A stretch of DNA of 52,385 nucleotides from assembly GCA_903934015.1 (NCBI GenBank), contig CAIZMI010000041.1:1-52385 (forward strand), written 5' to 3'. The notes beneath the pieces are model-generated. The model made no database searches and was not told where the DNA came from. It was given only the letters and a program-made list of their open reading frames with translations. Source of the DNA: an uncultured bacterium. Its GTDB lineage: Bacteria > Patescibacteriota > Andersenbacteria > UBA10190 > CAIZMI01. This document shows, piece by piece, positions 1-43,687 of this stretch (positions are counted from its first letter, which is position 1; the number at the start of each line of letters is the position of its first letter). The position numbers were made by a program, and so were the translations under genes.

Positions 1-48
1 CATCTGGATGGAAATAGACGTTATGGTATAAGAAGTCTCTGAGTTTCA

Positions 49-471
49 GTGTCATCTTTTCAAAAATTGGCTCGAATGAGACTACTTTGTCAGCGTGCTT
101 TTGTGCATGGGGATTTTACTAAAGCCAATGTGTTGAAGGGGAATGATAGCAAAATCTATATTTTGGATTTTTCCGTTTCAAATTGGTACCCAAGAATGCA
201 GGAACTTGCCGTGATTGCGGCCAATCTTTTACATGACGAAAAACATACTTCGTCCTTGCGTGAAAGATGTGATTTGGTTTATACGAATTATAACTTGTTG
301 AACCCACTCACAAAATTAGAGCATGACAATTTGTTTACTTACTCTGTTGCGGGATTAGCAATGGAACTTCTAGGTTCATACCAGGAGCGATTTATTAATG
401 GCAATGATAATGAAGAAACACGCTTTTGGTATAATCTTGGTCGTGAAGGCTTGCGAGAGGCACTTAATTAA
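49..471 (+). pseudogene. Phosphotransferase-family (APH/CotS-like kinase) C-terminal fragment. Only the catalytic-loop half is present.
   Basis: GTG-initiated 140-aa ORF carrying the Brenner catalytic motif HGDFTKANVL and the ILDF (DFG-like) motif but no N-terminal nucleotide-binding lobe. An in-frame TGA at 40-42 and stops in the other frames rule out an upstream extension. It is followed by the conserved 29-bp boundary motif. Confidence 0.4.
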
Positions 472-477
472 GTTCAA

Positions 478-710
478 AACAATAGTGTAGTCAGGGGTGG
501 GTAACCAAACATTCTTCTTCATGAGCATTATTCTGGTTCGGTCCTTCGACACGGCAGGATGAGTACTTCGACTGCGCTCAGCACAAGTAGTCCACCGACC
601 CTCGCTACGCCCCGAAGCGAACTTTGTTCTGCTTCGGGGGAGCTAACAAAAAATACCGCTAATCATGGAGATATTTTTGTGGAGGAGAGTTGGATTCCGA
701 ACTGAGGCCA
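478..710 (+). repeat. Long (~230 bp) copy A of the repeat element: 29-bp boundary motif plus a structured tail with hairpins
   Basis: Aligns over ~200 bp at high identity with 4852-5094. Contains the hairpin CCCCGAAGCG..CGCTTCGGGG and a degenerate AAAAATACCGC-loop-GCGGTATTTTT terminator-like hairpin. Confidence 0.7.
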
Positions 711-777
711 TTTTTCGCTGTTCGTACTTCAGTGAGTCGGAATGAGGGAAAACTAGTGATAGGTGTACAATTTGACT

Positions 778-1296
778 ATGCCAAAAGTATTAATTGTTAC
801 TGGTCCGGGCGGTGCTGGCAAAACAACAATCGCTCAGATGGTCGCGGAGAGATGTGGTTCTATTTATCTGGATGCCGATAGTGAAGATACAGAGTTTTTT
901 CCTGATGGTGGCCAGTGGTTGCCAGAGAATTCAGAAAAACTAAAAAAAGCGCATGAAAAAATTCTCAATAAGACGAGCGAACTGATTGAAAAAGGACACA
1001 GTGTTGTTGTTGACTATATTATTTTTGGTCGGTACGCCGAGTTTTTTGATATGTTTCGTAGTCGATTTGGAAGTGGCCTGCTAATTAAGGTTCTTTTTCC
1101 AACAGAAGCGGTTACCGTTAAGCGGGATAAGGAACGAGATTGTTGGACAACCGGGGAGGAGAGAATAAAAGCTGTTTCTGGAGAACTTTGGGATGTAAAA
1201 GAAATTGTAGGTAAAGAAAATTTCATAGATACTTCAAATCAGTCCTCTGAGGAAACGTTTAACAAATATTTCTCTAATTGTTTCAAAGCACCCTGA
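778..1296 (+). CDS. P-loop NTPase, small-molecule / nucleotide kinase-like (AAA_33 / CPT-like)
   Basis: Walker A GPGGAGKTT near the N-terminus; size ~173 aa. ATG at 778 is preferred over the GTG at 763. Confidence 0.55.
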   Translation: MPKVLIVTGPGGAGKTTIAQMVAERCGSIYLDADSEDTEFFPDGGQWLPENSEKLKKAHEKILNKTSELIEKGHSVVVDYIIFGRYAEFFDMFRSRFGSGLLIKVLFPTEAVTVKRDKERDCWTTGEERIKAVSGELWDVKEIVGKENFIDTSNQSSEETFNKYFSNCFKAP

Positions 1297-1298
1297 TT

Positions 1299-2225
1299 AT
1301 GTCTAAAAAAGGCAATGCCATCATCGAGTTAGCAGAAAAAAAGATACATGGTTCGATTAAAGACATTACTCAGGTTATTAATAAAGGCCATATGAATGAA
1401 GTTTATCTAGTTAAAACAGATAGACAAAATGTCATATTAAGGGTTAACGAACCATCAAGTTTTGAAAGGTTTAAAAAAGAATGTTGGTGTGCTGAGGAGG
1501 CAGCATTAATGGGTGTTCATACTCCAAAAGCGTTGGAAGTGGGTATTGGTGGTGAACATTCTTTTATTCTATTTGACTACATTGAAGGAAAGAATGGTGC
1601 TGAAATAGTTCAATCTCAAGACTTGTGGTACCAACTGGGTATACAGTTGAAAAAAATACACAATATCAGTGTCAATGGTTTTGGAGAAGAACTAAGCGAT
1701 ATTAGAAGTGGAAATTTTGATGAATGGAAAAAATATATCGACTACAATATTAATTCGTTAAACAAAGGCGATCAACTTCGTAAAAGAGGGGTTCTGAATG
1801 ATGAAAATTCTGCGAAGATACAAAGTTTGCTTAGTTCGTTGCTTGATAAAAAATTCAATTTTGGGTTGTCGCATGGAGATTATTCATTGGCAAACGTAAT
1901 TGTTGATAATCGTTCAGTACCAAATATTATTGATTGGGGATGCGCGCAAGCCCACGTAGTACCAGATTACGACTTCGGAATAATTATCGATGAAAGTGTT
2001 GGAGAAAATACCGAATATTTTAAAGCGTTGTTGAACGGATATGGTATGACAGAATCTGATTATTTAGATATCAAGAATGAAATTATGGTTTTGCAGTTGT
2101 TGGTTGCATTAGATAAGCTTCGGTGGGCGATGGACAAGAATACCAAACGCATTGAATTTTACGTGGCGCAGGTAACCAAGTTTGTTAAAAAAAACAACAG
2201 TGTAGTCAGAGGCGGGGTAAACTGA
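1299..2225 (+). CDS. Aminoglycoside/antibiotic phosphotransferase (APH) family kinase
   Basis: HGDYSLANVIVDN catalytic loop and IIDWG (DFG-equivalent); ~309 aa. The stop is embedded in the 29-bp boundary motif (...NNSVVRGGVN*). Confidence 0.7.
   Translation: MSKKGNAIIELAEKKIHGSIKDITQVINKGHMNEVYLVKTDRQNVILRVNEPSSFERFKKECWCAEEAALMGVHTPKALEVGIGGEHSFILFDYIEGKNGAEIVQSQDLWYQLGIQLKKIHNISVNGFGEELSDIRSGNFDEWKKYIDYNINSLNKGDQLRKRGVLNDENSAKIQSLLSSLLDKKFNFGLSHGDYSLANVIVDNRSVPNIIDWGCAQAHVVPDYDFGIIIDESVGENTEYFKALLNGYGMTESDYLDIKNEIMVLQLLVALDKLRWAMDKNTKRIEFYVAQVTKFVKKNNSVVRGGVN
2193..2222 (+). repeat. 29-bp boundary motif copy 2 (AACAACAGTGTAGTCAGAGGCGGGGTAAA)
   Basis: Direct sequence match to the copies at 478, 4252, 4852 and 5510. 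It overlaps the 3' end of the APH gene. Confidence 0.75.
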
Positions 2226-2306
2226 TTTTCATTTTAATTAGTGCAATTTCATATGCATACACGCGGGGCGTAGACGTCAGAACGTTTCGTTGTTAAAATC
2301 CGCTTA

Positions 2307-3401
2307 ATGGCCACCGAATTTATAAAAGGAATTGAGTTAAGCAGACGGTTTTGTCAAGAAATAGTTAAACCAATCCTTGATTCTGAGTTTCTGGGATTAA
2401 AATATTCTTCGGCCCTTATTGGTTGGGGGTCAGAAGTGTTGGGTTATGATACTGAAATTTCCAGAGATCACCACTGGGGTCCTCGGTTATTGATTTTATT
2501 GAATGAAGAAGATTTTGTGGAATTAAAGGAAAAAATATCTCAAAAGTTATCTGAAAAACTTCCATATGAATTCATGGGCTATTCCACCAACTTTTCAAAT
2601 GCAAAAGAACACGGTGTAAGAAGTGCAGAAAAAATAATCAGTGGCCCAGTAAATCACATGATTGAATTTTTTACTATCAAATCCCTTTGGTTAATGCGTT
2701 TGGGTTTTGACCCATATCAAGAGATTTTAAACCATGATTGGTTATCATTTCCTCAACAGAGATTGCTTGCTTTAACAAGTGGCGAAGTATATTTCGATGG
2801 ATTAGGTGAATTGGAAGAAGTAAGAAATAAATTTCACTATTATCCCAATGAAGTTTGGCTCTATCTTTTGGCATCGCAGTGGACAAAAATCGCACAAGAG
2901 CAAGCATTTGTCGGGCGTACAGGTGATGTTGGGGACGAATTGGGATCCCGCGTAGGGGCTTCTCGGCTGGTGCGAGAAATAATGAAATTGTGTTTCTTGA
3001 TGGAGAAGAAATATTATCCTTATACCAAGTGGTTCGGCACCGCTTTTGAAAATTTGAATATTGCACCAGTTTTGTCACCAATATTATCTCGCGTGTTTTT
3101 AGCGACTTCGTGGAAGGAAAGAGAAAAGTATCTTTCTGAAGCATATAAAGTGATTGCGATAGCACATAACTTATTAAAAATAACTAAGCCATTATCTACG
3201 GAAGTTTCTCTCTATCACGAAAGACCATATTTGGTCATAAGTGCCGATGAATTTGTGAAAGCCATAATTACTGAAATCAAGGAAGAATCACTAAAAAAAC
3301 TTCCCGTGATTGGTTCCATTGATCAATTTGTTGATAGCACTGATGTTTTAGATGAACCATTGTTGTGCAGGAAATTGAAGACAGTGTACGAGAATCCATA
3401 G
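2307..3401 (+). CDS. DUF4037 / nucleotidyltransferase-like domain protein
   Basis: N-terminal GWGSEVLGYDTEISRDHHWGPRL resembles the NTase-fold G[SG]..D.D signature region of DUF4037 proteins. Called from memory. Confidence 0.4.
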   Translation: MATEFIKGIELSRRFCQEIVKPILDSEFLGLKYSSALIGWGSEVLGYDTEISRDHHWGPRLLILLNEEDFVELKEKISQKLSEKLPYEFMGYSTNFSNAKEHGVRSAEKIISGPVNHMIEFFTIKSLWLMRLGFDPYQEILNHDWLSFPQQRLLALTSGEVYFDGLGELEEVRNKFHYYPNEVWLYLLASQWTKIAQEQAFVGRTGDVGDELGSRVGASRLVREIMKLCFLMEKKYYPYTKWFGTAFENLNIAPVLSPILSRVFLATSWKEREKYLSEAYKVIAIAHNLLKITKPLSTEVSLYHERPYLVISADEFVKAIITEIKEESLKKLPVIGSIDQFVDSTDVLDEPLLCRKLKTVYENP

Positions 3402-3413
3402 TATTCAAATTTT

Positions 3414-3818
3414 ATGAACGAAACAACACCATACTCACAACTAATAAAACCATCATGGGCTCCGCCGGGCTGGGTTATTGGGCCGGCATGGACGGTGCTC
3501 TATGCAATTATTGTCGTTTCTTTCGGTACTATTTTTTATAAAGCATTCACCAAGCAAATTCCGTGGGTGGTGGCTCTCCCTTTTGCACTCAATCTTGTTT
3601 TTAACTTTGTCTTTGCGCCAATACAATTCCGCTTGGTAAATAATTTTCTCGCATCGATCGACATCTTGCTCGTCGTCGGCACGCTCATCTGGGCGCTCTG
3701 TGCTGTCTGGCACGCTTCACCTGAGCTCCGCTGGGTGGTCTACGCCAACATTCCATATCTTCTGTGGGGAACATTTGCAACTTGTGTGCAATTAACAATA
3801 ACTTATTTAAATAGGTGA
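3414..3818 (+). CDS. tspO: TspO/MBR (tryptophan-rich sensory protein) family membrane protein, short form
   Basis: PSWAPPGWVIGPAWTVLY matches the TspO N-terminal signature. The protein has multiple TM helices and is 134 aa, shorter than typical TspO. Confidence 0.55.
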   Translation: MNETTPYSQLIKPSWAPPGWVIGPAWTVLYAIIVVSFGTIFYKAFTKQIPWVVALPFALNLVFNFVFAPIQFRLVNNFLASIDILLVVGTLIWALCAVWHASPELRWVVYANIPYLLWGTFATCVQLTITYLNR

Positions 3819-3935
3819 TGATTAATTTTAGATTTTGTTGGTTTATTTGTCATCATTTACGGATTTGGCCGATGAGTACATTGGTGGATGGCTAAAATGG
3901 CCGGAGAGTGAAAATATCGATGCTATCATTCTGAC

Positions 3936-4259
3936 ATGGGCATTGTTGTTTTTTTGAGACAATTCAAAATTGGACCGTTTGCTGTTTTCGATTTTGTATT
4001 AGCATATATTGGAGTATTTTTTATTGCTCTACTTTTAACAAAGTTGTTTTTAAGACTTAATCTTAAAATTTCACGAGAATCGTGGCTCTGGTTGACCTTG
4101 CCAATATCGGTGTTGTTTCATGCAGTTTTTCAGCAAAACACGCCTTTAATGAAGATTCTATTGAACCCAAATGGTTTTTATGTGGAAAAGGCGGTATTAA
4201 TATTTATGCTTTTTATGGGATTGAGAAAGATTCGCTTAGTTAAGGTCGCGAAACAATAG
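3936..4259 (+). CDS. Small integral membrane protein, unknown function
   Basis: 107-aa hydrophobic ORF with an ATG start. Its stop TAG lies inside boundary motif copy 3. Confidence 0.45.
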   Translation: MGIVVFLRQFKIGPFAVFDFVLAYIGVFFIALLLTKLFLRLNLKISRESWLWLTLPISVLFHAVFQQNTPLMKILLNPNGFYVEKAVLIFMLFMGLRKIRLVKVAKQ

Positions 4260-4280
4260 TATCGTCAGGGGTGGGGTAAA
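4252..4280 (+). repeat. 29-bp boundary motif copy 3 (AACAATAGTATCGTCAGGGGTGGGGTAAA)
   Basis: Direct sequence match to the other copies. Confidence 0.75.
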
Positions 4281-4307
4281 GTGATTATTTCTGTATAATG
4301 TGAACAT

Positions 4308-4859
4308 ATGGCAGATGAATTAATCGATATTGTTGATGAGAACAATAACCTCATTGGTGTCCAGAAGATGAAAAGTGAGGCGCATCGGGATGGTTTGTGG
4401 CATAGAACGGCGCATCTTTGGTTATATAACTCAAAAGGTGAAATTCTGCTTCAGTTGCGAGCGAAGAATAAAAAGTTGTATCCAGCATTATGGGATGTTT
4501 CCGCGGCTGGTCATATTGGTGCTGGTGAAGAGCCTATTGTCTCCGCGCTAAGAGAAGCGGATGAAGAAATTGGTATTCAACTCAGAAAGGATCAACTAGA
4601 TTTCTTTAAAACAAGAAAGGTCATGGCAGTTTATCGAGAAATAAAAAACAATGAATTTTGCTATGTATATTTGGCAAAATATGATGGCGGCGCTAAGAAT
4701 CTAAGGTTGCAGAAGGAAGAAGTGGAAGAAATTAAATTTGTTTCACTTGTTGAATTGGAAGCTAATTTGCGCGAAAAATCGGAACATTATGTTCGACATG
4801 GGAAATATTGGGATGATGTTATTGCGGAAATCAAAAGAAGGGTATTGATTAAACAATAG
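4308..4859 (+). CDS. NUDIX hydrolase
   Basis: NUDIX box GHIGAGEEPIVSALREADEEIGI (GX5EX7REUXEEXGU). Confidence 0.8.
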   Translation: MADELIDIVDENNNLIGVQKMKSEAHRDGLWHRTAHLWLYNSKGEILLQLRAKNKKLYPALWDVSAAGHIGAGEEPIVSALREADEEIGIQLRKDQLDFFKTRKVMAVYREIKNNEFCYVYLAKYDGGAKNLRLQKEEVEEIKFVSLVELEANLREKSEHYVRHGKYWDDVIAEIKRRVLIKQ

Positions 4860-5094
4860 TGTAGTCAGGGGTGGGGTAAACATACATGCTTCTTCATAAG
4901 CACAATTCTGGTTCGGTCCTTCGACACAGCTCAGGATAAATACTTCGACGCGGCTCAACATAAATAGTCCACCGACCCTCGCTACGTCCCGAAGCGAGCT
5001 TTGTTCTGCTTCGGGGGGGGGGGGGGGCTAACAAAAAATACCGCTAATCATGGCGGTATTTTTGTGGAGGGGAGTCGGATGCCAAATTGGTAGA
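4852..5094 (+). repeat. Long copy B of the repeat element. Carries a G15 homopolymer (5013-5027) and a clean terminator-like hairpin (5034-5063).
   Basis: Starts with the 29-bp motif, then ~200 bp collinear with 478-710. Hairpin AAAAATACCGC-TAATCATG-GCGGTATTTTT. Confidence 0.7.
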
Positions 5095-5125
5095 CTAGTT
5101 TCCGTTGAGAGCATATTATAAAAAA

Positions 5126-5521
5126 ATGATTACAAAAGAAAAAGTAAAGGAAATAATAGAAATATATAGTGAAGCATGGAAAAACCAGGGTGTCGAACAG
5201 ATATTGACGATCTTTACAAAGGACGCAAAATATCAAGAAGGTTTTTTATCTGAACCAATGGTTGGACACGAGGAGATTAGAAAATATTGGAACAAAAAGG
5301 TTGTCCTTGAGCAGAAAAGTATTCAATTCAAACTAGTTAGAATAATGATTGATGGTAATGATTGTTTGGTGGAATGGCACGCTGAGTTTGATGATCTAGT
5401 TTCGGGAGAGCATGTAAAAATGGTTGAAGTCGCATTTCTTGAATTTTTGGGCGATATGGTTTCATCTTTGCGAGAAAATTGGGATACGATCAGAATACCA
5501 ATCGCTCAAAAAATAGTGTAA
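5126..5521 (+). CDS. NTF2-like / SnoaL-like (ketosteroid-isomerase fold) small protein
   Basis: ~130 aa of typical SnoaL-like size and composition (the ORF-track TTG start is at 5105). The stop TAA lies inside boundary motif copy 5. Confidence 0.4.
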   Translation: MITKEKVKEIIEIYSEAWKNQGVEQILTIFTKDAKYQEGFLSEPMVGHEEIRKYWNKKVVLEQKSIQFKLVRIMIDGNDCLVEWHAEFDDLVSGEHVKMVEVAFLEFLGDMVSSLRENWDTIRIPIAQKIV

Positions 5522-5538
5522 TCAGGGGTGGGGTAAAA
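5510..5538 (+). repeat. 29-bp boundary motif copy 5 (AAAATAGTGTAATCAGGGGTGGGGTAAAA)
   Basis: Direct sequence match to the other copies. Confidence 0.7.
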
Positions 5539-5600
5539 CAGGCACCAATAAACGTAAAATAATTGGTTGCGTAGATATTGAAAGTTGATATAGTAAACTA

Positions 5601-6128
5601 ATGAAAATTTATGTTATTCGTCATGGAGAAACAACCGGAGATGTGGAAGATCGCTTCGGTGGTAGTTATGACGATCATTTAACCGAAAAGGGAAAAAGCC
5701 AATTGCAACAGACAGCCACGAGTTTGATTGGTAAAAATATTGAAATTATTTTATCGAGCCCATTGATTCGCGCACGGGAGTCTGTGGAAATTATCAATGG
5801 ACAAATAGCTGTTCCAGTTGAAATTATCGATGGGTTGCGCGAAAGACATTATGGTGTACTGACCGGATTGACGAAGGTCGTGGCGAAAGAAAGATTTCCG
5901 GAGGTTGTCGAGAGCCACAAAGATCCGTTGTACACGGATCCGGAAGGTGAAAGTTATGAAGATTTCAATGCAAGGGTGATAAGTACTTTTAAGGATATTT
6001 CAGCACGAAAATATAAAACAGTCGCTATTGTTTCACATGGTGGACCGATAAAAACGATTTACCGTTTTATTGGTAAGGAACTAAATCGACAATTGGGAGA
6101 TGGAGAAATTTTAGAATTGGAAATTTGA
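5601..6128 (+). CDS. Histidine phosphatase superfamily (phosphoglycerate-mutase-like) protein
   Basis: N-terminal IRHGET (RHG catalytic motif) and a C-terminal SHGG motif. Confidence 0.7.
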   Translation: MKIYVIRHGETTGDVEDRFGGSYDDHLTEKGKSQLQQTATSLIGKNIEIILSSPLIRARESVEIINGQIAVPVEIIDGLRERHYGVLTGLTKVVAKERFPEVVESHKDPLYTDPEGESYEDFNARVISTFKDISARKYKTVAIVSHGGPIKTIYRFIGKELNRQLGDGEILELEI

Positions 6129-6131
6129 ATA

Positions 6132-6722
6132 ATGATTACTAATTGTATAATTATCCACGGTTGTCCGTCGGATGCAGAGAAAGCAATGGATCCTGAAACC
6201 AGAACTTATGATAAACATTGGATTCCTTGGACGGCGAAACAGTTAACAGAAAGTGGAATCGATGTTGCAACTCCGCTAATGCCAGATCCGTGGAACCCAG
6301 TTTATGAAAAATTCAAAGAAGCATTTGAGAAGTGTGAAATTAACGAAAATACGGTTTTAATCGGTCATAGTTGCGGTTGTGCTTTTTTGGTGCGTTGGTT
6401 GGGAGACAGTAAAAGAAAAGTCGCAAGGCTTATTCTTGTTGCTCCATGGAAAGTGACGGATAAGGATGATGGGTATCGCAAGGAATTTTATGAATATCCA
6501 ATTGATGAAACGATCAAGAATAGAGTTGGCAGAGTTGTGATGTTTACCTCCAACACCGAAGAAGAAGATGGTAAGAAAAGCCTTAAGTTGTTTAACGATG
6601 TTTTAGGCGGAAAAATCGTCGGCTTAGATAATCACGGTCACTACACAATGAATGATATAGGCACAGATGAGTTTCCTGAACTTGTAAAAGAAGTTTTGGA
6701 AGCTGATAGCAAAAATAATTAG
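6132..6722 (+). CDS. Alpha/beta-hydrolase, YdeN/RBBP9-like serine hydrolase
   Basis: ~196 aa with IIHG...GHSCGC (nucleophile-elbow-like) and a late HYTM histidine. Confidence 0.5.
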   Translation: MITNCIIIHGCPSDAEKAMDPETRTYDKHWIPWTAKQLTESGIDVATPLMPDPWNPVYEKFKEAFEKCEINENTVLIGHSCGCAFLVRWLGDSKRKVARLILVAPWKVTDKDDGYRKEFYEYPIDETIKNRVGRVVMFTSNTEEEDGKKSLKLFNDVLGGKIVGLDNHGHYTMNDIGTDEFPELVKEVLEADSKNN

Positions 6723-6732
6723 GAAAAATAAT

Positions 6733-7410
6733 GTGGGTATAGACGACACAAAAGCGGAGATTATTGCTAAACGCGGATACAGAAAAAGTATCAAGGGTGA
6801 TCAGTATTCTCTTTATCTTTCTAATTATCCGGTTGCGGCGGATTATTTGTCTGAGAGGTTAGAAAACAAGGGTAAAATATTGGTGGAATTGTGTTGTGGT
6901 GTGGGTGTCACCATGCGGGCCGTGGCTAGCAAATTTGAAAAGCTTATCGGAATAGAAATAGACTCAGAAGTACTAGATTTTTGCCGCCAAAATCTCAAGG
7001 CTGCTGGTATAGCGAGTAAGATTGATTTTATTCAAGGGGATATTTCAGATCAAAACATTTTGAAAAAGATCAAGGCAGATGTAGCCATTTATGATATTCC
7101 TTATTGGGTGTCAAAAGAGTTGCCAGATGGAACGAATGTTTTAGACAGGAATCCGGAATTAGGGGTAATGATTGAAAAAATAAGAAAAAATATTACTCCC
7201 AATATTGTAATCTTTGCTCCTCCTTACCTTAAATACAATCTTGTGAGAGAGCAATTTGGAAAGTGTGAATTTCAAAAGATTTTCATCAATGGACGATACG
7301 ACAGGAATTACATATTTCTTGGGAACCTGGTTGAACACAAAGGTGTTACAGAAAAAAGATTGAAATATAGTATAGTTGGTGGTGGAATAACCAAAAATTC
7401 TCCTAATTAG
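6733..7410 (+). CDS. Class I SAM-dependent methyltransferase (TGS/RNA-cap-guanine-N2-like)
   Basis: VELCCGVGVTM glycine-rich SAM motif and an IFAPPY motif near the C-terminus; GTG start. Confidence 0.5.
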   Translation: MGIDDTKAEIIAKRGYRKSIKGDQYSLYLSNYPVAADYLSERLENKGKILVELCCGVGVTMRAVASKFEKLIGIEIDSEVLDFCRQNLKAAGIASKIDFIQGDISDQNILKKIKADVAIYDIPYWVSKELPDGTNVLDRNPELGVMIEKIRKNITPNIVIFAPPYLKYNLVREQFGKCEFQKIFINGRYDRNYIFLGNLVEHKGVTEKRLKYSIVGGGITKNSPN

Positions 7411-7489: not shown

Positions 7490-10252
7490 ATGAAGTGGAA
7501 TAAAATGAGCTTGTTTAAAATCAAAATTAAAATATTCTTTGTTCTCGTTATCTTGGGGCTTCTTTGTTTTCGATTTATACCAAGCGTTCATGCTGATGGC
7601 GAAAACTGGCTTACCGGTTATGGTTATCGAAAAGCCATTACAATAACAGGATCATCGAGTGGAGCCTTAACTAATTATCAACTTAAGTTTTTATTGAACA
7701 AAGGCGCCGGTAGCGATAGCGGTAATACGATTTATCTGGGAACAAATGTCCTTGATAGTTTCAATGACATCCGTTTTGCTACTAGCGACGGCAACACGGC
7801 GCTTGATTATTGGGTACAGTCTGTTTCCGGAATCGTTGCGACAGTGTGGGTGGAAGTGGATAGTGTTCCAGCCAATCCCAGCACAAAAACGATATATCTT
7901 TATTACGGAAAGGCTGGTGCTTCAAGCGCGAGCAATGGCGATAATACTTTCGCGTTTTATGATGATTTCAATGATGACAGTATTGATACAAACAAGTGGA
8001 CTGTTTCCACGGATAATGCCGTACTTGCCTCTTATTCCGAATCTGGCGGTTACGCCCGTTTAACTGGTACAGCATCCGGGTCGTGGCACTCGGCTTCTTG
8101 GGAAGCCAAAAACACATTTGGTCCGGGATACGCGCTTACAGCTTCTCAATATTATTCAGATTTCGTTTTTCCTTCAAACATTACTGCTCAAATGGGGTTT
8201 ACCAGCGCCGACTGGAATGATCGTTTGGCGATGAATATTCAGTCTCTTAATTGGGCTTCACCGTCTAATTCATATAAAATTGAATCCGCTAAGAGTGGTA
8301 CCGCAAGTTACTCAAACATCAGCAGTCCACACAATGCTTGGCGCACTTACGATTTTATTTGGACTCCAACTGTAAATAAAATCATAATAAATGGAGTAAC
8401 CGAGGCTACCATAAGTGATACAAGCTATATCTCCACCGATACGGCACTTAATCCAAAAATAATTCTTCAACCAGGAGCGGGAAACGGATATGTTTATACG
8501 GATTGGTTTATGGTGCGAAAGTATGTGAACAATGAACCCACTGTATCTGCGGGTGCGGAAGCAACGCCTGACTCAACACCTCCCACTATCCAAACATATT
8601 CTCCCGCCAATAATGCGACCAGTGTTTCATCTACGGCGAATTTGGTATTGGCATTCAATGAAAATATTACGGCGGTAACCGGAAAAAATATCACCATTAA
8701 AAAAGTATCAGACAACTCCGAGATCGAGACAGTTGCCGCTGATGACACCGGAAAAGTGACGATTGTAAACAATACGGCAAGCATTAATCCGGCTACCGTT
8801 TTGGATGATGTCACGCAGTATTATGTTTCAGTGGAAGCCGGCGCTTTTAAGGATTTATTCAATAATTCGTTTGCCGGTATCACCGACAGTACAACCTGGA
8901 GATTTACCACAAGCGATTCTGCTGCCCCGACCGTAGTTGCTCTCAGTCCGGTCAGTGGGTCTTTCGGGGTGCAGTTAAGTGGAAATTTGGCCATTGAATT
9001 CAACGAGAATGTGAATGTCGGCAGTGGCAGTGTGAGTATCTTTAATAAGTTCACAGACGTATTGGTGGAAGCGGTAGACGTGACGAGTGGGCAAGTGACA
9101 GGCGGTGGAACTTCGATAATTTCAATAAACCCGACTACAAATTTGGTGTATGCAACGGATTATTATATAAAAATTGATCCTACTGCTTTTACCGATTCTT
9201 CGAGTAACTCCTATTCGGGTATTTCCGATAAAACTTCGTGGGTATTGCAAACAGTGTTAGCTCCTGCATCATCAGTTGAATCAAGTGTCTCATCGGGTTC
9301 ACAAAAAAAACTACCGGATCCGGTGCACACGATAGATGTAAATGAGAAGGAGGTAAAAAGTGTAGACAGGAAAATTTTATCAAAGATTGAAGTTGAGCAA
9401 GATGCGCCGTTTGTGTTGCATGTCAAAGCGCCCGATCCAGATCAGGTAAAAAACGTTGTTGTAACAATAAATAAAAAAACGTACAAACTTGCCTTGGCAA
9501 AGGACAAAAAAGGTAACCCGGAATTTTTCATCAAATTGGCATTGTCAAAACCCGGAAATTATCCATATTCCATTATTTCTGATTATGGTTCAACGGTTCG
9601 TCGTGCAAAAGGTGAGGTTATTATTAAAAAGAAAGCAGTAGCTGTAATATTGCCTTCCCCAAAACCAATTTATTCAAAGCAAAATATTGTGAAAGAAAAG
9701 CCTTTTCTCATAAAGCAAAAACCAACTGCTAATAATGTTGTTGAGAAAAGCAAGATTGAGAAAAAGACGGAAGTTGCGCCAACTGTTCCGACGATGATAA
9801 CCACTGTACCCGAATCTTCGCTTGAGATACCAACTGAAAAGATACCCAATGAAACATGGATCGATCTCACCTTCAATCTGTTTAAAACAACCGGGTCAAA
9901 AACAAGTTCGATGATTTCCAATACGTCTCGCTCGTTTGTTGGATTATTTGTAGGGACGGGAGAAAAAATAGCGAAATTATTTGAAAAAAATCCCGCGCAT
10001 GTTTATCGAAAAGTGACTGTGAAGTTGACTTCGGAGGAGGGGACGCCTCTTATTGGTGCGACGGTTACTATTTCGTCGGAACCGCAGACGGCTGTTAGTG
10101 ATAGTGACGGAAAGGTTCAGTTTGAAAACATTGAAGCGGGAAAACATCAATTGAAAGTTGATTATCAGGGATATTCAACCAAACAAGCATTATCAATAAC
10201 CGAACCTGTTACAGAAGTAACAATTAATATCACGGCGGTTTTTAAAAAATAA
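7490..10252 (+). CDS. Giant secreted surface protein (920 aa). Signal peptide, DUF2341/LamG-like N-domain, three tandem Ig-like (SbsA/Big-type) domains, and a conserved C-terminal region with a carboxypeptidase-regulatory-like beta domain.
   Basis: Signal peptide; GYGYRKAITITG...NYQLKF...FNDIRFATSDGNTALDYWVQ matches the DUF2341 signature. ~100-aa repeats span nt ~8578-9245. The C-terminal ~330 aa is ~70% identical to the paralog at 19946-22408. Confidence 0.7.
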   Translation: MKWNKMSLFKIKIKIFFVLVILGLLCFRFIPSVHADGENWLTGYGYRKAITITGSSSGALTNYQLKFLLNKGAGSDSGNTIYLGTNVLDSFNDIRFATSDGNTALDYWVQSVSGIVATVWVEVDSVPANPSTKTIYLYYGKAGASSASNGDNTFAFYDDFNDDSIDTNKWTVSTDNAVLASYSESGGYARLTGTASGSWHSASWEAKNTFGPGYALTASQYYSDFVFPSNITAQMGFTSADWNDRLAMNIQSLNWASPSNSYKIESAKSGTASYSNISSPHNAWRTYDFIWTPTVNKIIINGVTEATISDTSYISTDTALNPKIILQPGAGNGYVYTDWFMVRKYVNNEPTVSAGAEATPDSTPPTIQTYSPANNATSVSSTANLVLAFNENITAVTGKNITIKKVSDNSEIETVAADDTGKVTIVNNTASINPATVLDDVTQYYVSVEAGAFKDLFNNSFAGITDSTTWRFTTSDSAAPTVVALSPVSGSFGVQLSGNLAIEFNENVNVGSGSVSIFNKFTDVLVEAVDVTSGQVTGGGTSIISINPTTNLVYATDYYIKIDPTAFTDSSSNSYSGISDKTSWVLQTVLAPASSVESSVSSGSQKKLPDPVHTIDVNEKEVKSVDRKILSKIEVEQDAPFVLHVKAPDPDQVKNVVVTINKKTYKLALAKDKKGNPEFFIKLALSKPGNYPYSIISDYGSTVRRAKGEVIIKKKAVAVILPSPKPIYSKQNIVKEKPFLIKQKPTANNVVEKSKIEKKTEVAPTVPTMITTVPESSLEIPTEKIPNETWIDLTFNLFKTTGSKTSSMISNTSRSFVGLFVGTGEKIAKLFEKNPAHVYRKVTVKLTSEEGTPLIGATVTISSEPQTAVSDSDGKVQFENIEAGKHQLKVDYQGYSTKQALSITEPVTEVTINITAVFKK

Positions 10253-10325
10253 ACGTTGTGGATATTGTTAATTAAACAATGGTGTAGGCAAAAGTTTGGT
10301 AATATAATTTTCTAAAATTATTTCA

Positions 10326-11729
10326 TTAGCGCATTGAGCGGCCTTGGGTGTCCTTCAGCCACTGAATGGTGCCGCCTAGTTTCTCAGGGGTATTCTTATC
10401 CGTGTTGATGCGATTGAACCAATAATCTTTTTCATCCTCGTTCGCATCGCGTTGGTGGGTAAAATAGAAAAAATAAGGAAACCATTTATTTTCCAGGACG
10501 GAGCTGTCGAGTTCCGCGTTTAATGGTGTGCGGGCCGGATTGTTTCCCGACTTTTTCGCGCCCTTCATTGCATTCAGCAGTTCAGCTTTGTTTTTTACTT
10601 CGCCGTTGTATGCATAATCCACCCAAAACTGATTGTCATTCACCGACGGGTCACGATCGAAAACGCTCATAAAAATATTATTCATATCGGCAATGAGTGC
10701 GCGGATTTCCGGTCGCACGCGGGTTAGGTTATGTGCCGTATTAGGGGCAGATTTTGCGCCACTTGTTGTACTGCTGTTTGTGTTTGGGGCAATTGTATTT
10801 TTGAATGCTCGCACGTCTTCTCCGGTTGCGTATTTGGTGAAAATTTCGGGGTACTCTTTTCTCGCCTGATTTGCCCCACTCATCGCATTTAAAATTTCAG
10901 GACTGGCAATTTTTCTTCTTTTTCCTCCTTGCATCAAGTAAACATCTTTTCCAATTCCAATAAACCAGCCATCCGGATATTTGTCGATGTTTACACCACG
11001 ACGTAGTGTCGCCAGTTGCGCTGACGACAAAGCAACGCGCTGGCTCTCATCCGGATTTCCGTCGGCTTCATAGAAGCGGTCTTTGAGGTATAAATGTTTT
11101 TCAATTTTTCCATCACCGGCTTCCGTTGTCTTCCACATTCGTCCACCGTGATAATGTCCGTCGTAAAATACAAATCCGCCAGGGATTGATTTTCCATCCA
11201 AGGGTTTGCCGGTAGAGAATTGGGTCAGGTGCGCATCAGTGGTGGCGTATAGATTATTTGCGGGGAATTTTAATGTGGCGCGAGCCGTGGTCGACAATTC
11301 TCGTTTTCTCATTTTGTCATCAATGAAATACTGTTTCCCCGAAGATCCTTTTAAAACCTTCCCGACGTAAATTTTATTGACAGCATTACCTTGCGGGTAG
11401 CGGGCAAAATCCTCCGTTGAAATAGTGCGGATAATGTCGCGTTTGAAAAAATGATTTTCGCCAAGCCAGCGGTCCAAAATACTGTTCAAAATTAAAGTCG
11501 TTTTACCGTCGCGAATTTGGTAAACATTATTGTTTGTGGCTTTTTTTACTAATGTGCCGTTTGGCAGGAAATTGGGATTATGGTTTGAAGGGTAGAATTT
11601 TTTATCAACCCTGAAACCGCTTGGGGTCTTCGTCGTCGCGACACCTTGTACTGTTCCACCGGCAAAAGAATCGGAGGCGGAGATAATCGTACCAACCAGC
11701 AATGCGCCTAAAAATAATTTGTTCCTCAT
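10326..11729 (-). CDS. Secreted protein with two C-terminal DUF4214-like repeats
   Basis: Start at the internal ATG (MRNKLFLGALLVG signal peptide) rather than the ORF-track start. Repeats IFMSVFDRDPSVNDNQFWV and the DEKDYWFNRI repeat fit DUF4214. Confidence 0.55.
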   Translation of the reverse strand: MRNKLFLGALLVGTIISASDSFAGGTVQGVATTKTPSGFRVDKKFYPSNHNPNFLPNGTLVKKATNNNVYQIRDGKTTLILNSILDRWLGENHFFKRDIIRTISTEDFARYPQGNAVNKIYVGKVLKGSSGKQYFIDDKMRKRELSTTARATLKFPANNLYATTDAHLTQFSTGKPLDGKSIPGGFVFYDGHYHGGRMWKTTEAGDGKIEKHLYLKDRFYEADGNPDESQRVALSSAQLATLRRGVNIDKYPDGWFIGIGKDVYLMQGGKRRKIASPEILNAMSGANQARKEYPEIFTKYATGEDVRAFKNTIAPNTNSSTTSGAKSAPNTAHNLTRVRPEIRALIADMNNIFMSVFDRDPSVNDNQFWVDYAYNGEVKNKAELLNAMKGAKKSGNNPARTPLNAELDSSVLENKWFPYFFYFTHQRDANEDEKDYWFNRINTDKNTPEKLGGTIQWLKDTQGRSMR

Positions 11730-11802
11730 ATTTTGAATTATCGCATATAGCAAAGTCAACGGCAAAAGCCTCTTGATTTTATTCGAAGTGTATAATGTGG
11801 TT

Positions 11803-12150
11803 ATGGCCACATCTCAATCAACTGTCGATTTCATTTTGGACCAATTAGTGAGAGAGGGACGGGCGAGAGCGAAAAAAATGTTTGGTGAATATGCTTTGTA
11901 TTTTGACGACAAGGTTGTCGGTCTCGTGTGCAACGATACTTTGTATATTAAAATTACCGAACAGGGAAAGGAATTTGTCGGAAAATATTATAAAGAAGGA
12001 TATGCTTATCCTGGCGCGAAAGTTTCAATGGAGATTGATGGTGGACAAATGGAGGATCGCGAGTGGCTCTGTAATTTGGTCCGTATTACATCAGAAAATG
12101 TGCCTTTTCCTAAACCAAAGAAATCCAGGAAAAGAAAGAGTCCCAAGTAA
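11803..12150 (+). CDS. TfoX/Sxy N-terminal-domain protein
   Basis: MFGEYALYFDDKVVGLVCNDTLYIK matches TfoX_N; basic lysine-rich tail. The ATG at 11803 is preferred. Confidence 0.55.
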   Translation: MATSQSTVDFILDQLVREGRARAKKMFGEYALYFDDKVVGLVCNDTLYIKITEQGKEFVGKYYKEGYAYPGAKVSMEIDGGQMEDREWLCNLVRITSENVPFPKPKKSRKRKSPK

Positions 12151-12260: not shown

Positions 12261-13361
12261 ATGATTACGGCTACTGGAAAACTTGAAGTTTTTGGGTATG
12301 ATGCATTTTTCGAGTCAGGTAGAGTTGAATTGGGGTTGCTTGATTGTGAGGTGGCGCGGGTTACCGTGATGAGTCGTGGGCAATACAAAGTTATTGGTAA
12401 GAATGGCGAGTTTTTGGCAAAAATTACTGGTAAGATGATGTTTACCGCTAACGCCACGGAGGATTATCCGGCAGTTGGAGATTGGGTGGCGATTAAAGAA
12501 CTGGAAAACAAACAAGCAGTAATAAAAGCAGTGCTCCCACGTAAGACTATAATAAAAAGAAAGTACGGAGATAAGAACCAGGCCGGCGACAAAAATGAAA
12601 CGCAAATTATCGGAGCTAACATTGATGAAGCATTTGTTGTTGAATCGACCGATCGCGATTTTAATCTTAATCGTTTTGAAAGATATTTTGTCATTTTGAG
12701 TGAAGCGGGCGTTAAGCCGGTGATCGTGTTAAACAAGATTGATTTAATTTCGAAAGAAGAGCTTGAGATAAAATTGGTTGAACTTAAAGAAAGATTTAAA
12801 AACGTTATGGTTATTGCCACTAGCACTATTGATGATAGCGGGCTTGATACCTTGATGACGTATTTATTGCCTGGCAAGACTTATTGTTTTCTGGGCTCTT
12901 CCGGTGTTGGAAAATCCACTTTGATAAATAAACTGATTGGGAAATATGTTGCTTCGACGGCAGAAATTAGTGAACAATCCAAAAGGGGGAAGCACATAAC
13001 GACAATGCGCAATATGTATTTTTTAAAAAACGGCGCAATAGTGATCGATAATCCCGGCATGAGAGAGATTGGAATCATTGCCGGTGACGCTGATAGCGTA
13101 TTTGGAGAAATTGCGGTTTTGGCCGGGCAATGCAAGTTTAAAGATTGTACTCATACTCAGGAACCGGGATGCAGAGTTCTTGAGGAGTTAAGTGATGGAA
13201 AATTAAATGAAGAAAAATATTCAAATTACCTGAACCTAAAAAAAGAAACTGATAATTCGCAGATGTCGAATTGGGAAAAAAGAAAAGCGGACCGTGACTT
13301 TGGAAAGTTCATCAATAAAGCCAAGAAAGATTTGAAGAAATTTAAGGGTGGCGGAGTGTAG
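12261..13361 (+). CDS. rsgA: Ribosome small-subunit-dependent GTPase A
   Basis: Circularly permuted GTPase motifs: LNKIDL (G4), GSSGVGKSTLINKL (G1), and the C-terminal zinc knuckle CKFKDCTHTQEPGC. Confidence 0.85.
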   Translation: MITATGKLEVFGYDAFFESGRVELGLLDCEVARVTVMSRGQYKVIGKNGEFLAKITGKMMFTANATEDYPAVGDWVAIKELENKQAVIKAVLPRKTIIKRKYGDKNQAGDKNETQIIGANIDEAFVVESTDRDFNLNRFERYFVILSEAGVKPVIVLNKIDLISKEELEIKLVELKERFKNVMVIATSTIDDSGLDTLMTYLLPGKTYCFLGSSGVGKSTLINKLIGKYVASTAEISEQSKRGKHITTMRNMYFLKNGAIVIDNPGMREIGIIAGDADSVFGEIAVLAGQCKFKDCTHTQEPGCRVLEELSDGKLNEEKYSNYLNLKKETDNSQMSNWEKRKADRDFGKFINKAKKDLKKFKGGGV

Positions 13362-26262: not shown

Positions 26263-26411
26263 ATCAGTAATATAAAAAGTGAGGTGAAATACAGCTCACT
26301 TTTTTATTTGAGTTCGTAATAATCATGTGAGTATTGGTGTGATTAGAAAGAAGGTAGCTACTGACCCGTATGAAAGAATGTAGTTTTTATTAAGTACTTG
26401 AAAAACCATAA

Positions 26412-26490
26412 CCCTCGAGGCATCGGGGGTCCAAAACGTGGATTCCCGTTGTCACTATTCGACCCCGAGCTCATGGTCGAGGGGCGGGAA
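26412..26490 (+). repeat. GC-rich nested inverted repeat / candidate structured RNA
   Basis: CCCTCGA..CGGGGGTC...GACCCCG..TCGAGGG, plus ATTCCCG...CGGGAAT arms of the same kind as the hairpin-repeat family. Confidence 0.35.
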
Positions 26491-26593
26491 TGGGTGATTT
26501 GGATAAAGTTTGATTGTAGTTAAGAATATTTTTCATTGGAGTGAGTAGATACGAAGTAAAGACAGGTGTTGGGTGGTGTGATAGTTTGTAGAT

Positions 26594-43469: not shown

Positions 43470-43585
43470 TTTAAAAGTTGATCAGATTACACACAGAATT
43501 CAACATGAGCCTCCATTCCCGCAACAAGCGGGAATCCACGTTTTATATTGTATGGGCCCCCGATGTCTCGGGGGTGGTGGTTTTT
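43470..43585 (+). repeat. Intergenic repeat element, copy 2. Contains ATTCCCGC-AACAA-GCGGGAAT and CCCCCGA-TGTC-TCGGGGG hairpins followed by TTTTT.
   Basis: Aligned with 38405-38540. The second hairpin plus T-run is terminator-like. Confidence 0.6.
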
Positions 43586-43687
43586 AAAGTACTTAATAAA
43601 AACTGCAAACTATCATATCGGTGAGCAGTTACATTTGTCTTGTTTGTTAGAAATTGATTTATTTGTTAAAATATAATAAATCAAAAC

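What the first reader, a model, noticed from the sequence alone, without database searches (positions are those of the whole stretch)
1..5540. Co-oriented accessory-gene run punctuated by a conserved ~29-bp motif at gene 3' ends: possible integron-like cassette array
Five copies of AACAATAGTGTAGTCAGGGGTGGGGTAAA (84-100% identical) sit at 478, 2193, 4252, 4852 and 5510. Each is exactly at, and overlapping, the stop codon of the last gene of a co-oriented unit. The units are unrelated small genes typical of cassette cargo:
- an APH-type kinase fragment;
- a P-loop kinase plus an APH kinase;
- a DUF4037 / nucleotidyltransferase-like gene, TspO and a small membrane protein;
- NUDIX;
- an NTF2-like gene.
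Unit lengths are 0.6-2 kb and all are on the + strand, which resembles a chromosomal integron array with homogeneous attC-like sites (VCR-type). Three points argue against a classical integron:
- Three copies are bare 29-mers with no obvious attC palindrome.
- Two carry a ~230-bp structured tail.
- No integrase lies in the window; the array is cut by the window start, and the first gene is a truncated APH fragment.
Alternatives are a site-specific recombination target serially occupied by small islands, or a conserved 3'-end RNA processing or recoding signal. The motif provides stops in two frames and a G-rich tract. I do not recognise any of these arrangements as a described system.
Basis: partly seen in the sequence, partly recalled or inferred. 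Interest (0 to 1): 0.8.

Follow-up and report, generated by a model that had tools for sequence, protein, structure and literature searches.

The report
tRNA-anchored array of small gene islands
The repeated 29-base motif is real, but it is not an integron site: it is the left arm of a ~155-base junction element containing a degenerate copy of the 3' end of a nearby tRNA-Asn gene, and it separates about a dozen tiny accessory gene units stacked next to that tRNA gene in an uncultured Patescibacteria (CPR) bacterium.

Summary
The 29-mer sits on the + strand at window 477, 2192, 4251, 4851 and 5508, with decayed copies at 7362 and 10274; chance expects none. The window cuts the array. On the full contig it starts about 9.9 kb upstream, beside a tRNA-Asn(GUU) gene that is split by a group I intron.

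An exact 18-bp copy of the tRNA 3' end lies 198 bp after the gene. It is followed by the same "tail" module that follows the 29-mer elsewhere. A full junction is about 155 nt: the 29-mer and a variable hairpin, then a tRNA-Asn-3'-like segment, then a terminator-like hairpin module. Long forms (~230 nt) carry insertions, and "bare" copies are 5' halves.

Each unit has its own promoter-like site and 1-3 unrelated accessory genes. A relative has different genes in the same slot.

Canonical attC features are absent, and no integrase lies within about 20 kb upstream or 42 kb downstream of the array. I could not test mobility, because only one strain-level population is available.

My best reading is serial accretion of integrase-less mini-islands at tRNA-Asn. 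They are integron-like in scale and tRNA-island-like in site type. The main rival is a tRNA-derived mosaic intergenic repeat.

The parts
477..702 (+). Junction element E7, long form. Head 477-506 (the 29-mer with a 1-nt deletion); variable hairpin to ~534; tRNA-Asn-3'-like segment split by insertions (GGTTCGGT 535-542, AGTCCACCGACCCTCG 588-604, GAGC 640-643); hairpin plus T-run 646-680; end module to 702.
   Evidence: homology of the 3' part to the tRNA flank
763..2225 (+). Unit u7: P-loop kinase (AAA_33/zeta-like, 778-1296) plus an APH-family kinase (1299-2225). The APH ORF reads through the next head.
2192..2236 (+). Junction element E8, 5'-half-only ('mini') form: head 2192-2221 plus ~15 nt of the variable module.
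   Evidence: nhmmer model 2-45, E 5.7e-07
2307..4259 (+). Unit u8: DUF4037 protein, TspO and a 107-aa membrane protein. The stop TAG lies inside the next head.
4251..4289 (+). Junction element E9, mini form (head 4251-4280).
4308..4859 (+). Unit u9: NUDIX hydrolase (183 aa). The stop TAG lies inside the next head.
4851..5087 (+). Junction element E10, long form: consensus head 4851-4880, then the same modules as E7. It contains a poly-G tract (~5007-5021) whose length differs between assemblies.
   Evidence: gap length 266-268 nt
5126..5521 (+). Unit u10: SnoaL/NTF2-like protein. The stop TAA lies inside the next head.
5508..5537 (+). Junction element E11, mini form (head only).
5601..7410 (+). 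Unit u11: histidine phosphatase, serine hydrolase and a methyltransferase. The last ORF reads through a decayed head.
7362..7391 (+). Junction element E12: decayed head (10/30 mismatches), translated as …YSIVGGGI….
7490..10252 (+). Unit u12: 920-aa surface protein (DUF2341, Big_5, CarboxypepD_reg).
10274..10303 (+). Junction element E13: decayed head (8/30 mismatches), the last copy. The array ends here, against a convergent conserved 494-aa gene (10326-11810, minus strand) and rsgA (12261-13361).
1..471 (+). 3' part of unit u6 (DUF4202/HD protein plus a 317-aa APH-family kinase), cut by the window start. The rest of the array lies upstream on the same contig: tRNA-Asn, the 18-bp tRNA repeat, fur-znuABC, units u1-u5 and junctions E1-E6. 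These span L108 7699-18301, which is window -10602 to 0.

Best explanation
The run is the distal half of a ~20-kb accretion array anchored at a tRNA-Asn(GUU) gene. It consists of about 13 miniature islands with no integrase. Each island is one promoter-bearing transcription unit of 1-3 accessory genes, and they are stacked head to tail.

The repeat between units is a composite attachment-site junction with three parts:
- a left arm (the 29-mer 'head' plus a variable hairpin), which is the right end of one unit;
- a core, which is a degenerate copy of the tRNA-Asn T-arm and acceptor 3' end;
- a right arm (an AT-rich hairpin with a T-run, then …GTCGGnnnTCGAAC), which is the left end of the next unit.

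A full junction is ~155 nt, the size of a tyrosine-integrase attP.

Shown:
- the anatomy;
- the tRNA gene and its exact 18-bp repeat;
- homology of the junction's 3' part to the tRNA 3' end plus flank;
- co-orientation of all copies;
- different gene content in this slot in a relative.

Inferred:
- that units entered one at a time at the tRNA-proximal end by site-specific recombination, catalysed by an integrase encoded elsewhere or since lost;
- that the 29-mer is conserved because it is an arm-type protein-binding site;
- that head-only and core-plus-tail-only junctions are half sites left by recombination or deletion.
For: (1) Anchor. L108 carries rpoD followed by a tRNA-Asn gene. Its exons become a canonical tRNA-Asn(GTT) once a group I intron is removed (Rfam RF00028, 44 bits, E 1e-9, below the family's gathering score of 50). 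The exons are identical to the intron-less gene of relative L098.

(2) The 18-mer GAGTCCGACCCCGGGAGC, the tRNA 3' end, recurs exactly 198 bp downstream. It is followed at once by the family's tail module (nhmmer E 8.6e-13).

(3) Every full junction carries GGTTCGGTAGTCCACCGACCCTCGGAGC directly before that tail.
- It aligns to the tRNA 3' end GGTTCGAGTCCGACCCCGGGAGC (p ~0.001 against shuffles).
- The L100 variant AGTTCGAGTCCGATTGCGGGAGC matches 19/22 aligned positions (none of 5000 shuffles reached its score).

(4) All 14 junctions of the array have the orientation of the tRNA gene.

(5) Full forms lie nearest the tRNA, and the two farthest copies are the most decayed.

(6) Units look autonomous and unrelated.
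- Consensus promoters sit just after junctions; the best is TTGACA-17-TATAAT.
- Some units have their own terminator before the junction.
- GC per gene ranges from 0.33 to 0.53.
- Paralogous APH and NUDIX pairs are only 23-24% identical, while heads are 84-100% identical.

(7) Slot variability.
- Relative L098 has rpoD, tRNA-Asn, then seven small co-oriented genes. None of the array proteins finds a close match among them (one weak partial hit only).
- Relative L094 has znuB about 0.9 kb from rsgA, against ~19 kb here.

(8) ZnuB is 79-88% identical across many CPR lineages, while RsgA's best relative is 73%. This suggests that fur-znuABC, the first unit, is itself transferred cargo.

(9) Precedent. 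Islands next to tRNA genes with serial integrations, and partial tRNAs scattered through them, are described for tycheposons (bioRxiv 10.1101/2020.12.28.424599).
Against: - No integrase, excisionase or integrase pseudogene lies from L108 1 to window 52385 (~70.7 kb), or in 21 kb of a second contig, which has only an IS-type rve transposase.
- The core differs from the real tRNA end by two indels in every head-bearing copy. These copies descend from one diverged ancestor and do not come from recent exchange with this tRNA gene.
- Seven copies are head-only with no tRNA-like core, yet their heads are well conserved.
- The second locus, between pepA and asnS in L100, has four junctions but no tRNA gene found within 10 kb on either side.
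- Rfam's tRNA model does not hit the elements even at E = 10, so the 'pseudo-tRNA' reading of the 5' half is weak.
- The order of units is identical in the 20 or so contigs fetched from different assemblies. The one exception looks like a chimeric join across a 38-nt identical stretch.
- No excision or insertion polymorphism was seen.
Confidence: 0.5

Rival explanations
1. This is a lineage-specific mosaic extragenic repeat that originally derived from the tRNA-Asn 3' end and its terminator. It would resemble BOX, BIME, NIME or MITE elements. It spread into intergenic spacers of dispensable regions and now serves as a terminator or insulator between units. The genes did not arrive with it.
For: - Modules recombine freely: the head, a 'B' head, or a 'C' hairpin can be joined to short or long tail modules. 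Long forms are short forms plus hairpin insertions.
- The tail holds an 11-bp hairpin with a T-run in all short forms and hairpins with paired insertions.
- Copies occur at a second locus without a tRNA gene.
- No recombinase is nearby.
- The order of units is fixed in all assemblies.
- A 74%-identical homologue of the L008 cargo gene has no head next to it.
Against: - No terminal inverted repeats or target duplications were seen.
- All 20 copies have one orientation, and none lies in about 78 kb of core-like sequence sampled.
- Every spacer of more than ~150 nt inside the array has a copy, while comparable spacers in the core have none.
- The exact 18-bp tRNA repeat next to the tRNA gene is an integration signature, not a transposition one.
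- 5'-half-only copies keep 90% head identity while their flanks have decayed.
Confidence: 0.25
2. The junctions act as portable homology. Units are exchanged between cells by natural transformation and homologous recombination between repeats, with no dedicated recombinase.
For: - Heads share 84-100% identity and tails 60-88%.
- The modules are mosaic.
- No recombinase was found.
- From general knowledge, CPR bacteria commonly carry competence-type uptake genes; I did not test this here.
Against: - The stretches of perfect identity are short (30-40 nt), which is poor substrate for RecA.
- No duplicated or reshuffled units were seen.
- It does not explain the tRNA-derived core or the anchoring at the tRNA.
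Confidence: 0.1
3. The element works as RNA: a 3'-UTR stabiliser, a processing site or a multicopy small RNA, with the 29-mer pairing to the downstream CCACCGACCC segment.
For: - The alignment fold pairs TCAGGGG·TGGGG with CCACC·GACCCTCGG, with one double change (E2) and one G·U-compatible change (E15).
- The long form folds better than shuffles on the + strand (z = -3.6).
- Orientation always follows the upstream gene.
Against: - Several units end in their own strong terminator before the element, so it would often not be transcribed with the gene.
- Head-only copies lack the pairing partner.
- Three or four copies break pairs.
- A rival local hairpin, GGTTCGG/CCGACC, explains the same changes.
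- There is no Rfam match.
Confidence: 0.1
4. This is a chromosomal integron array, or a CALIN (a cluster of attC sites lacking an integron integrase), with homogeneous attC sites.
For: The units are small, unrelated and co-oriented. Stop codons run into the repeat. The cargo is typical of cassettes.
Against: - No RYYYAAC…GTTRRRY pair lies at any junction in the scanned composite; the one pair found is inside znu coding sequence, and shuffles give about 5.
- There is no inverted partner of the 29-mer.
- Several units carry consensus promoter-like sites.
- No intI was found.
- The junction core is tRNA-derived.
Confidence: 0.03

Closest known systems
tRNA-anchored genomic islands built by serial integration (tycheposon islands of Prochlorococcus; tandem ssrA or tRNA islands; accretion of cis-mobilizable elements, CIMEs)
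   Same: - The island sits directly 3' of a tRNA gene.
- Direct, co-oriented partial copies of the tRNA 3' end separate blocks of accessory genes.
- Gene content differs between relatives at the same slot.
- Older junctions are more decayed.
- Units without their own integrase are known (CIMEs and remnants).
   Different: - The units here are tiny (0.6-3 kb, 1-3 genes), and none of about 13 keeps any integrase trace.
- The junction is a uniform ~155-nt composite with a strongly conserved 29-nt arm.
- The tRNA-like core has diverged from the resident tRNA.
- Head-only junctions exist.
- A second array has no tRNA gene found nearby.
Integron cassette arrays and CALINs
   Same: - The scale and logic are the same: many small, unrelated, co-oriented cargo units, each closed by a conserved site that often overlaps the stop codon.
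- The recombinase is not inside the units.
   Different: - There are no attC sequence or palindrome features and no intI or attI.
- Several units carry their own promoter-like sites, and some their own terminators.
- The site is tRNA-derived.
Mosaic extragenic repeats (pneumococcal BOX, E. coli BIME/REP, Neisseria NIME/Correia elements)
   Same: They are also modular, built of hairpin modules in variable combinations, extragenic, oriented with transcription and terminator-like.
   Different: - Those families are dispersed genome-wide.
- Here all copies seen lie in two accessory blocks, in one orientation and one per unit boundary.
- The 3' part is homologous to a tRNA end.

Membership tests
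Integron / CALIN | attC site with an R'' (RYYYAAC) and an R' (GTTRRRY) box 50-160 nt apart, forming an imperfect palindrome | tested here: not met
   The regex scan of the 21.6-kb composite (both strands) finds one pair, inside znu coding sequence and at no junction. Shuffles give 5.2 ± 4.1. There is no reverse-complement copy of the 29-mer. The IntegronFinder covariance model was not available.
Integron / CALIN | An integron integrase (intI) with attI and Pc next to the array (not required for a CALIN) | tested here: not met
   Pfam scans or precomputed Pfam for all genes from L108 1 to window 52385 show no tyrosine or serine recombinase. The rest of the genome was not seen.
Integron / CALIN | Mostly promoter-less cassettes expressed from a common promoter | tested here: not met
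   Promoter-like sites scoring 10-12 of 12 lie directly after junctions E2, E3, E4 and E5. Extended -10 boxes precede other units. These are consensus matches only.
tRNA-anchored island / tandem accretion | A tRNA (or tmRNA) gene at one end, in the same orientation as the repeats | tested here: met
   tRNA-Asn(GTT) lies at L108 7699-8203, interrupted by a group I intron, on the + strand directly upstream of the first junction.
tRNA-anchored island / tandem accretion | Direct repeats of the tRNA 3' part bounding the inserted units | tested here: met
   An exact 18-bp repeat lies at L108 8185-8202 and 8383-8400. Degenerate copies occur in all full junctions (p ~0.001 each), each followed by the same tail module. 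Seven head-only junctions lack it.
tRNA-anchored island / tandem accretion | An integrase gene in, or acting on, the units | tested here: not met
   None lies in the ~92 kb of this genome that was gene-annotated. A trans-acting enzyme elsewhere in the genome cannot be excluded.
tRNA-anchored island / tandem accretion | Variable content at the same slot in related genomes | tested here: met
   L098 has rpoD and tRNA-Asn followed by seven small genes. None of the array proteins finds a close match among them; the only hit is one weak partial match of u1. L094 has znuB ~0.9 kb from rsgA. The nearest relatives are distant (RsgA 68-73%).
tRNA-anchored island / tandem accretion | Excision, circular forms or presence/absence polymorphism of units | not testable with these tools
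   Only one strain-level population exists in the collections: the RsgA 90% cluster has one member. All contigs share one order.
MITE | Terminal inverted repeats and target-site duplications | tested here: not met
   The 5' end AAACAATAGTG… and the 3' end …GTCGGGGTTTCGAAC are not complementary. By eye, the flanks of E1-E4 show no duplication.
REP/BIME/BOX-type extragenic repeats | Modular hairpin elements dispersed through the extragenic space of the whole genome | tested here: inconclusive
   Modularity and hairpins are met. Dispersal is not: there are 0 copies in ~78 kb of core-like sequence against 18 in ~25 kb of accessory blocks. Only about 10% of a genome was sampled.
Any curated RNA family (Rfam 15) | A match at the gathering score | tested here: not met
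   No family reaches its gathering score in the window. At E up to 10 there is nothing on the elements in the window or L001. A sub-threshold tmRNA hit (21 bits against 47) falls on the minus strand of one L100 copy only.

The most novel reading that the evidence does not exclude
CPR bacteria of this lineage may run a cassette-capture system that works like an integron but is built from tRNA-island parts. A pool of 1-3-gene cassettes would each carry its own promoter and a ~155-nt attP (29-nt arm, pseudo-tRNA-Asn core, terminator arm). A single integrase encoded elsewhere would insert and stack them at tRNA-Asn and at secondary sites.
Probability: 0.25. Interest if true: 0.8.

Novelty: new variant of a known kind. 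Interest (0 to 1): 0.55.

Why it matters
CPR/Patescibacteria have tiny genomes and few recognised mobile elements, and how they gain accessory genes is poorly understood.

Here 20 kb of cargo sits as promoter-bearing mini-units between uniform tRNA-derived junctions. The cargo includes small-molecule kinases, NUDIX enzymes, a candidate defence ATPase and a zinc uptake operon.

If the units are mobile, this is a compact gene-capture platform convergent with integrons but derived from tRNA-site integration. The 155-nt junction would then be a searchable marker for such cargo in metagenomes.

If they are not mobile, it is still a clean example of a tRNA-end-derived repeat family that marks unit boundaries in a streamlined genome.

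Tried and rejected
- **Searches for the motif elsewhere.**
  - The exact 20-mer gave 0 hits in 185,579 species-representative genomes.
  - It gave one 2.1-kb contig (L008) in JGI metagenomes.
  - The motif and the tail gave 0 hits in viral contigs.
  - blastn of the long and short elements against plasmids and phages found nothing.
  - The family appears confined to one species-level lineage plus L008.
- **80 ZnuB loci of other genomes and the loci of RsgA relatives.** None has the motif or an analogous array.
- **tmRNA idea.** The Rfam tmRNA hit is sub-threshold and aligns well only over an A-rich 28-mer. ARAGORN finds nothing at normal settings and only noise at relaxed ones. I dropped it.
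- **Pseudo-tRNA reading of the whole head-to-core stretch.** The stretch is tRNA-sized (72 nt) and collinear alignments exist. However, the score is only about 2.4 sd above shuffles and Rfam's tRNA model is silent. I kept it only as a lead.
- **Other site types considered from the sequence and rejected.** Recoding or readthrough at the motif's TAG fails, because three frames are used and the downstream ORFs are not conserved. Xer/dif-like sites, CRISPR repeats, uptake sequences and Ter sites fail on missing symmetry, spacing or distribution.
- **Recent duplication of units by unequal crossing-over.** The APH and NUDIX pairs are only 23-24% identical.
- **L092 (NUDIX joined to asnS).** This looks like an assembly chimera across a 38-nt identical stretch, not a variant.
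- **Homologues of the L008 cargo gene.** Those at 74% and 51% identity have no head next to them.

Full report
**1. The observation**

The 29-mer AACAATAGTGTAGTCAGGGGTGGGGTAAA occurs on the + strand at window 2193, 4252, 4852 and 5509 with 0-3 mismatches. No shuffle of the window gave a single match. The copy at 478 has a one-base deletion and appears in the repeat and Hamming scans. So do two decayed copies at 7362-7391 and 10274-10303. There is none in the other 42 kb of the window.

Four ORFs end in, or read through, the motif, using three different frames. The copy at 478 starts 6 nt after its stop codon. The two long tails (477-702 and 4851-5087) are 84-88% identical.

**2. The window cuts the array**

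An exact-protein look-up recovered the same contig from several assemblies. The window is the last 52.4 kb of an ~82-kb contig.

Upstream lie four more head-bearing junctions. Each is ~155 nt, at L001 2539, 3503, 4165 and 4848. Two further junctions have a diverged head (L001 6600 and 7949). More small accessory units sit between them.

Coordinates convert as follows: window = L001 − 9223 = L108 − 18301.

**3. Anatomy of the junction**

A full 'short' junction has these parts, in order:
- the 29-mer head;
- a variable ~25-nt hairpin region;
- ATTCTGGTTCGGTAGTCCACCGACCCTCGGAGC;
- an 11-bp AT-rich hairpin followed by a T-run;
- GTATACnnAAGTCGGGGTTTCGAAC.

The 'long' form is the short form with two hairpin insertions and a variant of the last two modules. 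The 'bare' copies keep the head plus 10-15 nt, so they are 5' halves.

Strong promoter-like sites follow several junctions directly; the best is TTGACA-17-TATAAT. Some units have their own G+C-rich terminator before the head. The repeat therefore lies between transcription units and is not necessarily inside the upstream mRNA.

**4. The key result: a tRNA anchor**

A further look-up reached 10 kb upstream of znuC (L108). After dnaG and rpoD comes a tRNA-Asn(GUU) gene interrupted in the anticodon loop by a group I intron.
- Rfam RF00028 gives 44 bits and E 1e-9 over the full model, just under the family's gathering score of 50.
- The joined exons give a canonical tRNA-Asn in ARAGORN.
- They are identical to the intron-less gene of a relative.

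The last 18 nt of the tRNA recur exactly 198 bp downstream. This repeat is followed immediately by the tail module of the family (nhmmer E 8.6e-13).

The conserved segment before the tail in every full junction aligns to the tRNA T-arm and acceptor 3' end: GGTTCG-GT-AGTCC-ACC-GACCC-TC-GGAGC against GGTTCG-AGTCC-GACCC-CG-GGAGC. The p-value is about 0.001 against composition-matched shuffles. Variants at a second locus are closer still.

So the 3' two-thirds of the element is a paralogue of 'tRNA-Asn 3' end plus downstream flank'. The 29-mer is the arm on the other side of that core.

The order on the contig is:
- rpoD
- tRNA-Asn
- [18-bp repeat + tail]
- fur-znuABC
- junction, then u1, and so on through u12
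- last decayed head
- a convergent conserved gene
- rsgA.

That makes 14 junctions in ~20 kb, all in the orientation of the tRNA gene.

**5. Context and relatives**

The organism is a Patescibacteria (CPR) bacterium. Its nearest relatives in the protein collection are distant, at 73, 69 and 68% RsgA identity.

- Genes to the right of the array (the 494-aa gene, rsgA, a sigma factor, ArsP) are conserved in those relatives.
- The array genes find no close match in them.
- In L098, rpoD and tRNA-Asn are followed by seven small genes that the array proteins do not match closely, before the conserved block.
- In L094, znuB lies ~0.9 kb from rsgA, against ~19 kb here.
- ZnuB is 79-88% identical across many CPR lineages, so the znu operon may itself be cargo.
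- GC per gene ranges from 0.33 to 0.53.
- One unit encodes a close match to the candidate defence protein PDC-S01.

**6. Second locus and a second contig set**

Another contig of the same assemblies (L100) has four junctions in a 4.5-kb accessory block between pepA and asnS. Two have the head. Two have a tRNA-Asn 3' fragment plus another hairpin instead. An IS-type transposase sits beside them. No tRNA gene was found within 10 kb.

A 2.1-kb metagenome contig (L008) has two head-only copies after small unrelated ORFs. Nothing similar exists in the other collections searched.

**7. What it is not**

Canonical attC features are absent. No recombinase gene lies from L108 1 to window 52385, or in L100. 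No Rfam family matches the elements.

A sub-threshold tmRNA hit on one copy rests on an A-rich stretch, and I set it aside.

Evidence for a long-range stem between the head and the core is thin: one double change against three or four broken pairs.

**8. Interpretation**

The best-supported reading is serial accretion of small, non-autonomous integrative units at tRNA-Asn, with a ~155-nt junction of attP size (arm, tRNA-like core, arm). This is the known logic of tRNA-anchored islands, described for tycheposons: integrated elements flanked by partial tRNAs, later arrivals pushing earlier ones inward, and partial tRNAs scattered through the islands.

What is unusual:
- the cassette-like scale;
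- the uniformity of the junction;
- the total absence of integrase traces.

Weak points:
- the core has diverged from the resident tRNA;
- head-only junctions exist;
- the second locus has no tRNA gene;
- no polymorphism is visible, because only one population is available.

A tRNA-derived mosaic repeat with no role in gene movement remains a serious rival.

Noticed in passing
L108 7699-8203 (window -10602 to -10098): The tRNA-Asn(GUU) gene is interrupted in the anticodon loop by a ~430-nt group I intron (Rfam RF00028, 44 bits against a gathering score of 50, E 1e-9). ARAGORN misses the gene until the intron is removed. Relative L098 has the identical gene without the intron.
   Followed up: yes
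L098 1006-1045 and 1305-1344: In the relative, a 74-aa GIY-YIG gene is flanked by two copies of the tRNA-Asn 5' part, each with a G+C-rich hairpin inserted in the D-loop, just upstream of the intact tRNA-Asn. A second kind of mobile element appears to target the same tRNA gene.
   Followed up: no
window 38470-38545 (+), 43500-43635 (+), 26351-26500 (-): An unrelated intergenic repeat family lies in the core part of the window. It has a CCGC…GCGGGAAT hairpin, then TATTGTATGGgCCCCCGATnTCTCGGGGGTGGTG. A similar CATTCCCGC…GCGGGAATC hairpin follows rpoD in L108 and L098. There is no Rfam match.
   Followed up: partly
L108 ~7560-7610 and ~8080-8130; L100 ~5840-5910; L098 ~745-800: A small palindromic element, GTCTTTGCGAGCCATC…GGCGAAGCAATCT, recurs in intergenic DNA and inside the group I intron. 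It occurs both in this genome and in a relative.
   Followed up: no
window ~5007-5021 (inside junction E10): A poly-G tract of about 13-15 G differs in length between assemblies: the NUDIX-to-SnoaL gap is 266, 267 or 268 nt. This could be assembly error or a slippage-prone tract.
   Followed up: no
L100 9701-9845: A head-bearing junction with the tRNA-Asn-like core lies 155 nt upstream of asnS (asparaginyl-tRNA synthetase). This may be coincidence, or a tRNA-mimic leader; I did not test it.
   Followed up: no
L100 6384-6974: The 159-aa ORF has an in-frame TAG at 6861-6863. It then continues for 34 codons to the TAG inside the head (…FQAKQ*). It is probably a recent nonsense mutation in an ORF that originally ended in the motif.
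   Followed up: partly
L092 3443-3480: This Logan contig joins the NUDIX unit of the array to asnS of the other contig, across a 38-nt stretch identical in two junctions. It is most likely an assembly chimera. Contig L101 starts exactly at the head.
   Followed up: yes
L001 6791-7927 (window -2432 to -1296): The AAA_14/DUF4143 ATPase of unit u5 matches the PADLOC candidate defence family PDC-S01 at 495 bits over its full length.
   Followed up: partly
L001 1675-2490 (znuB) against window 12261-13361 (rsgA): ZnuB is 79-88% identical to proteins in MAGs labelled as many different CPR lineages, and 70-73% to non-CPR phyla. RsgA's best relative is 73%. The zinc uptake operon looks widely transferred.
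   Followed up: partly
L100 7989-8249 (minus strand): Rfam's tmRNA model gives a sub-threshold hit (21 bits against a gathering score of 47; E 1e-5 to 8e-5). It is driven by CAAAAAUAACUGCUAACUAUAGCGAUUA in the tail hairpin. It remains unexplained and is probably spurious.
   Followed up: partly
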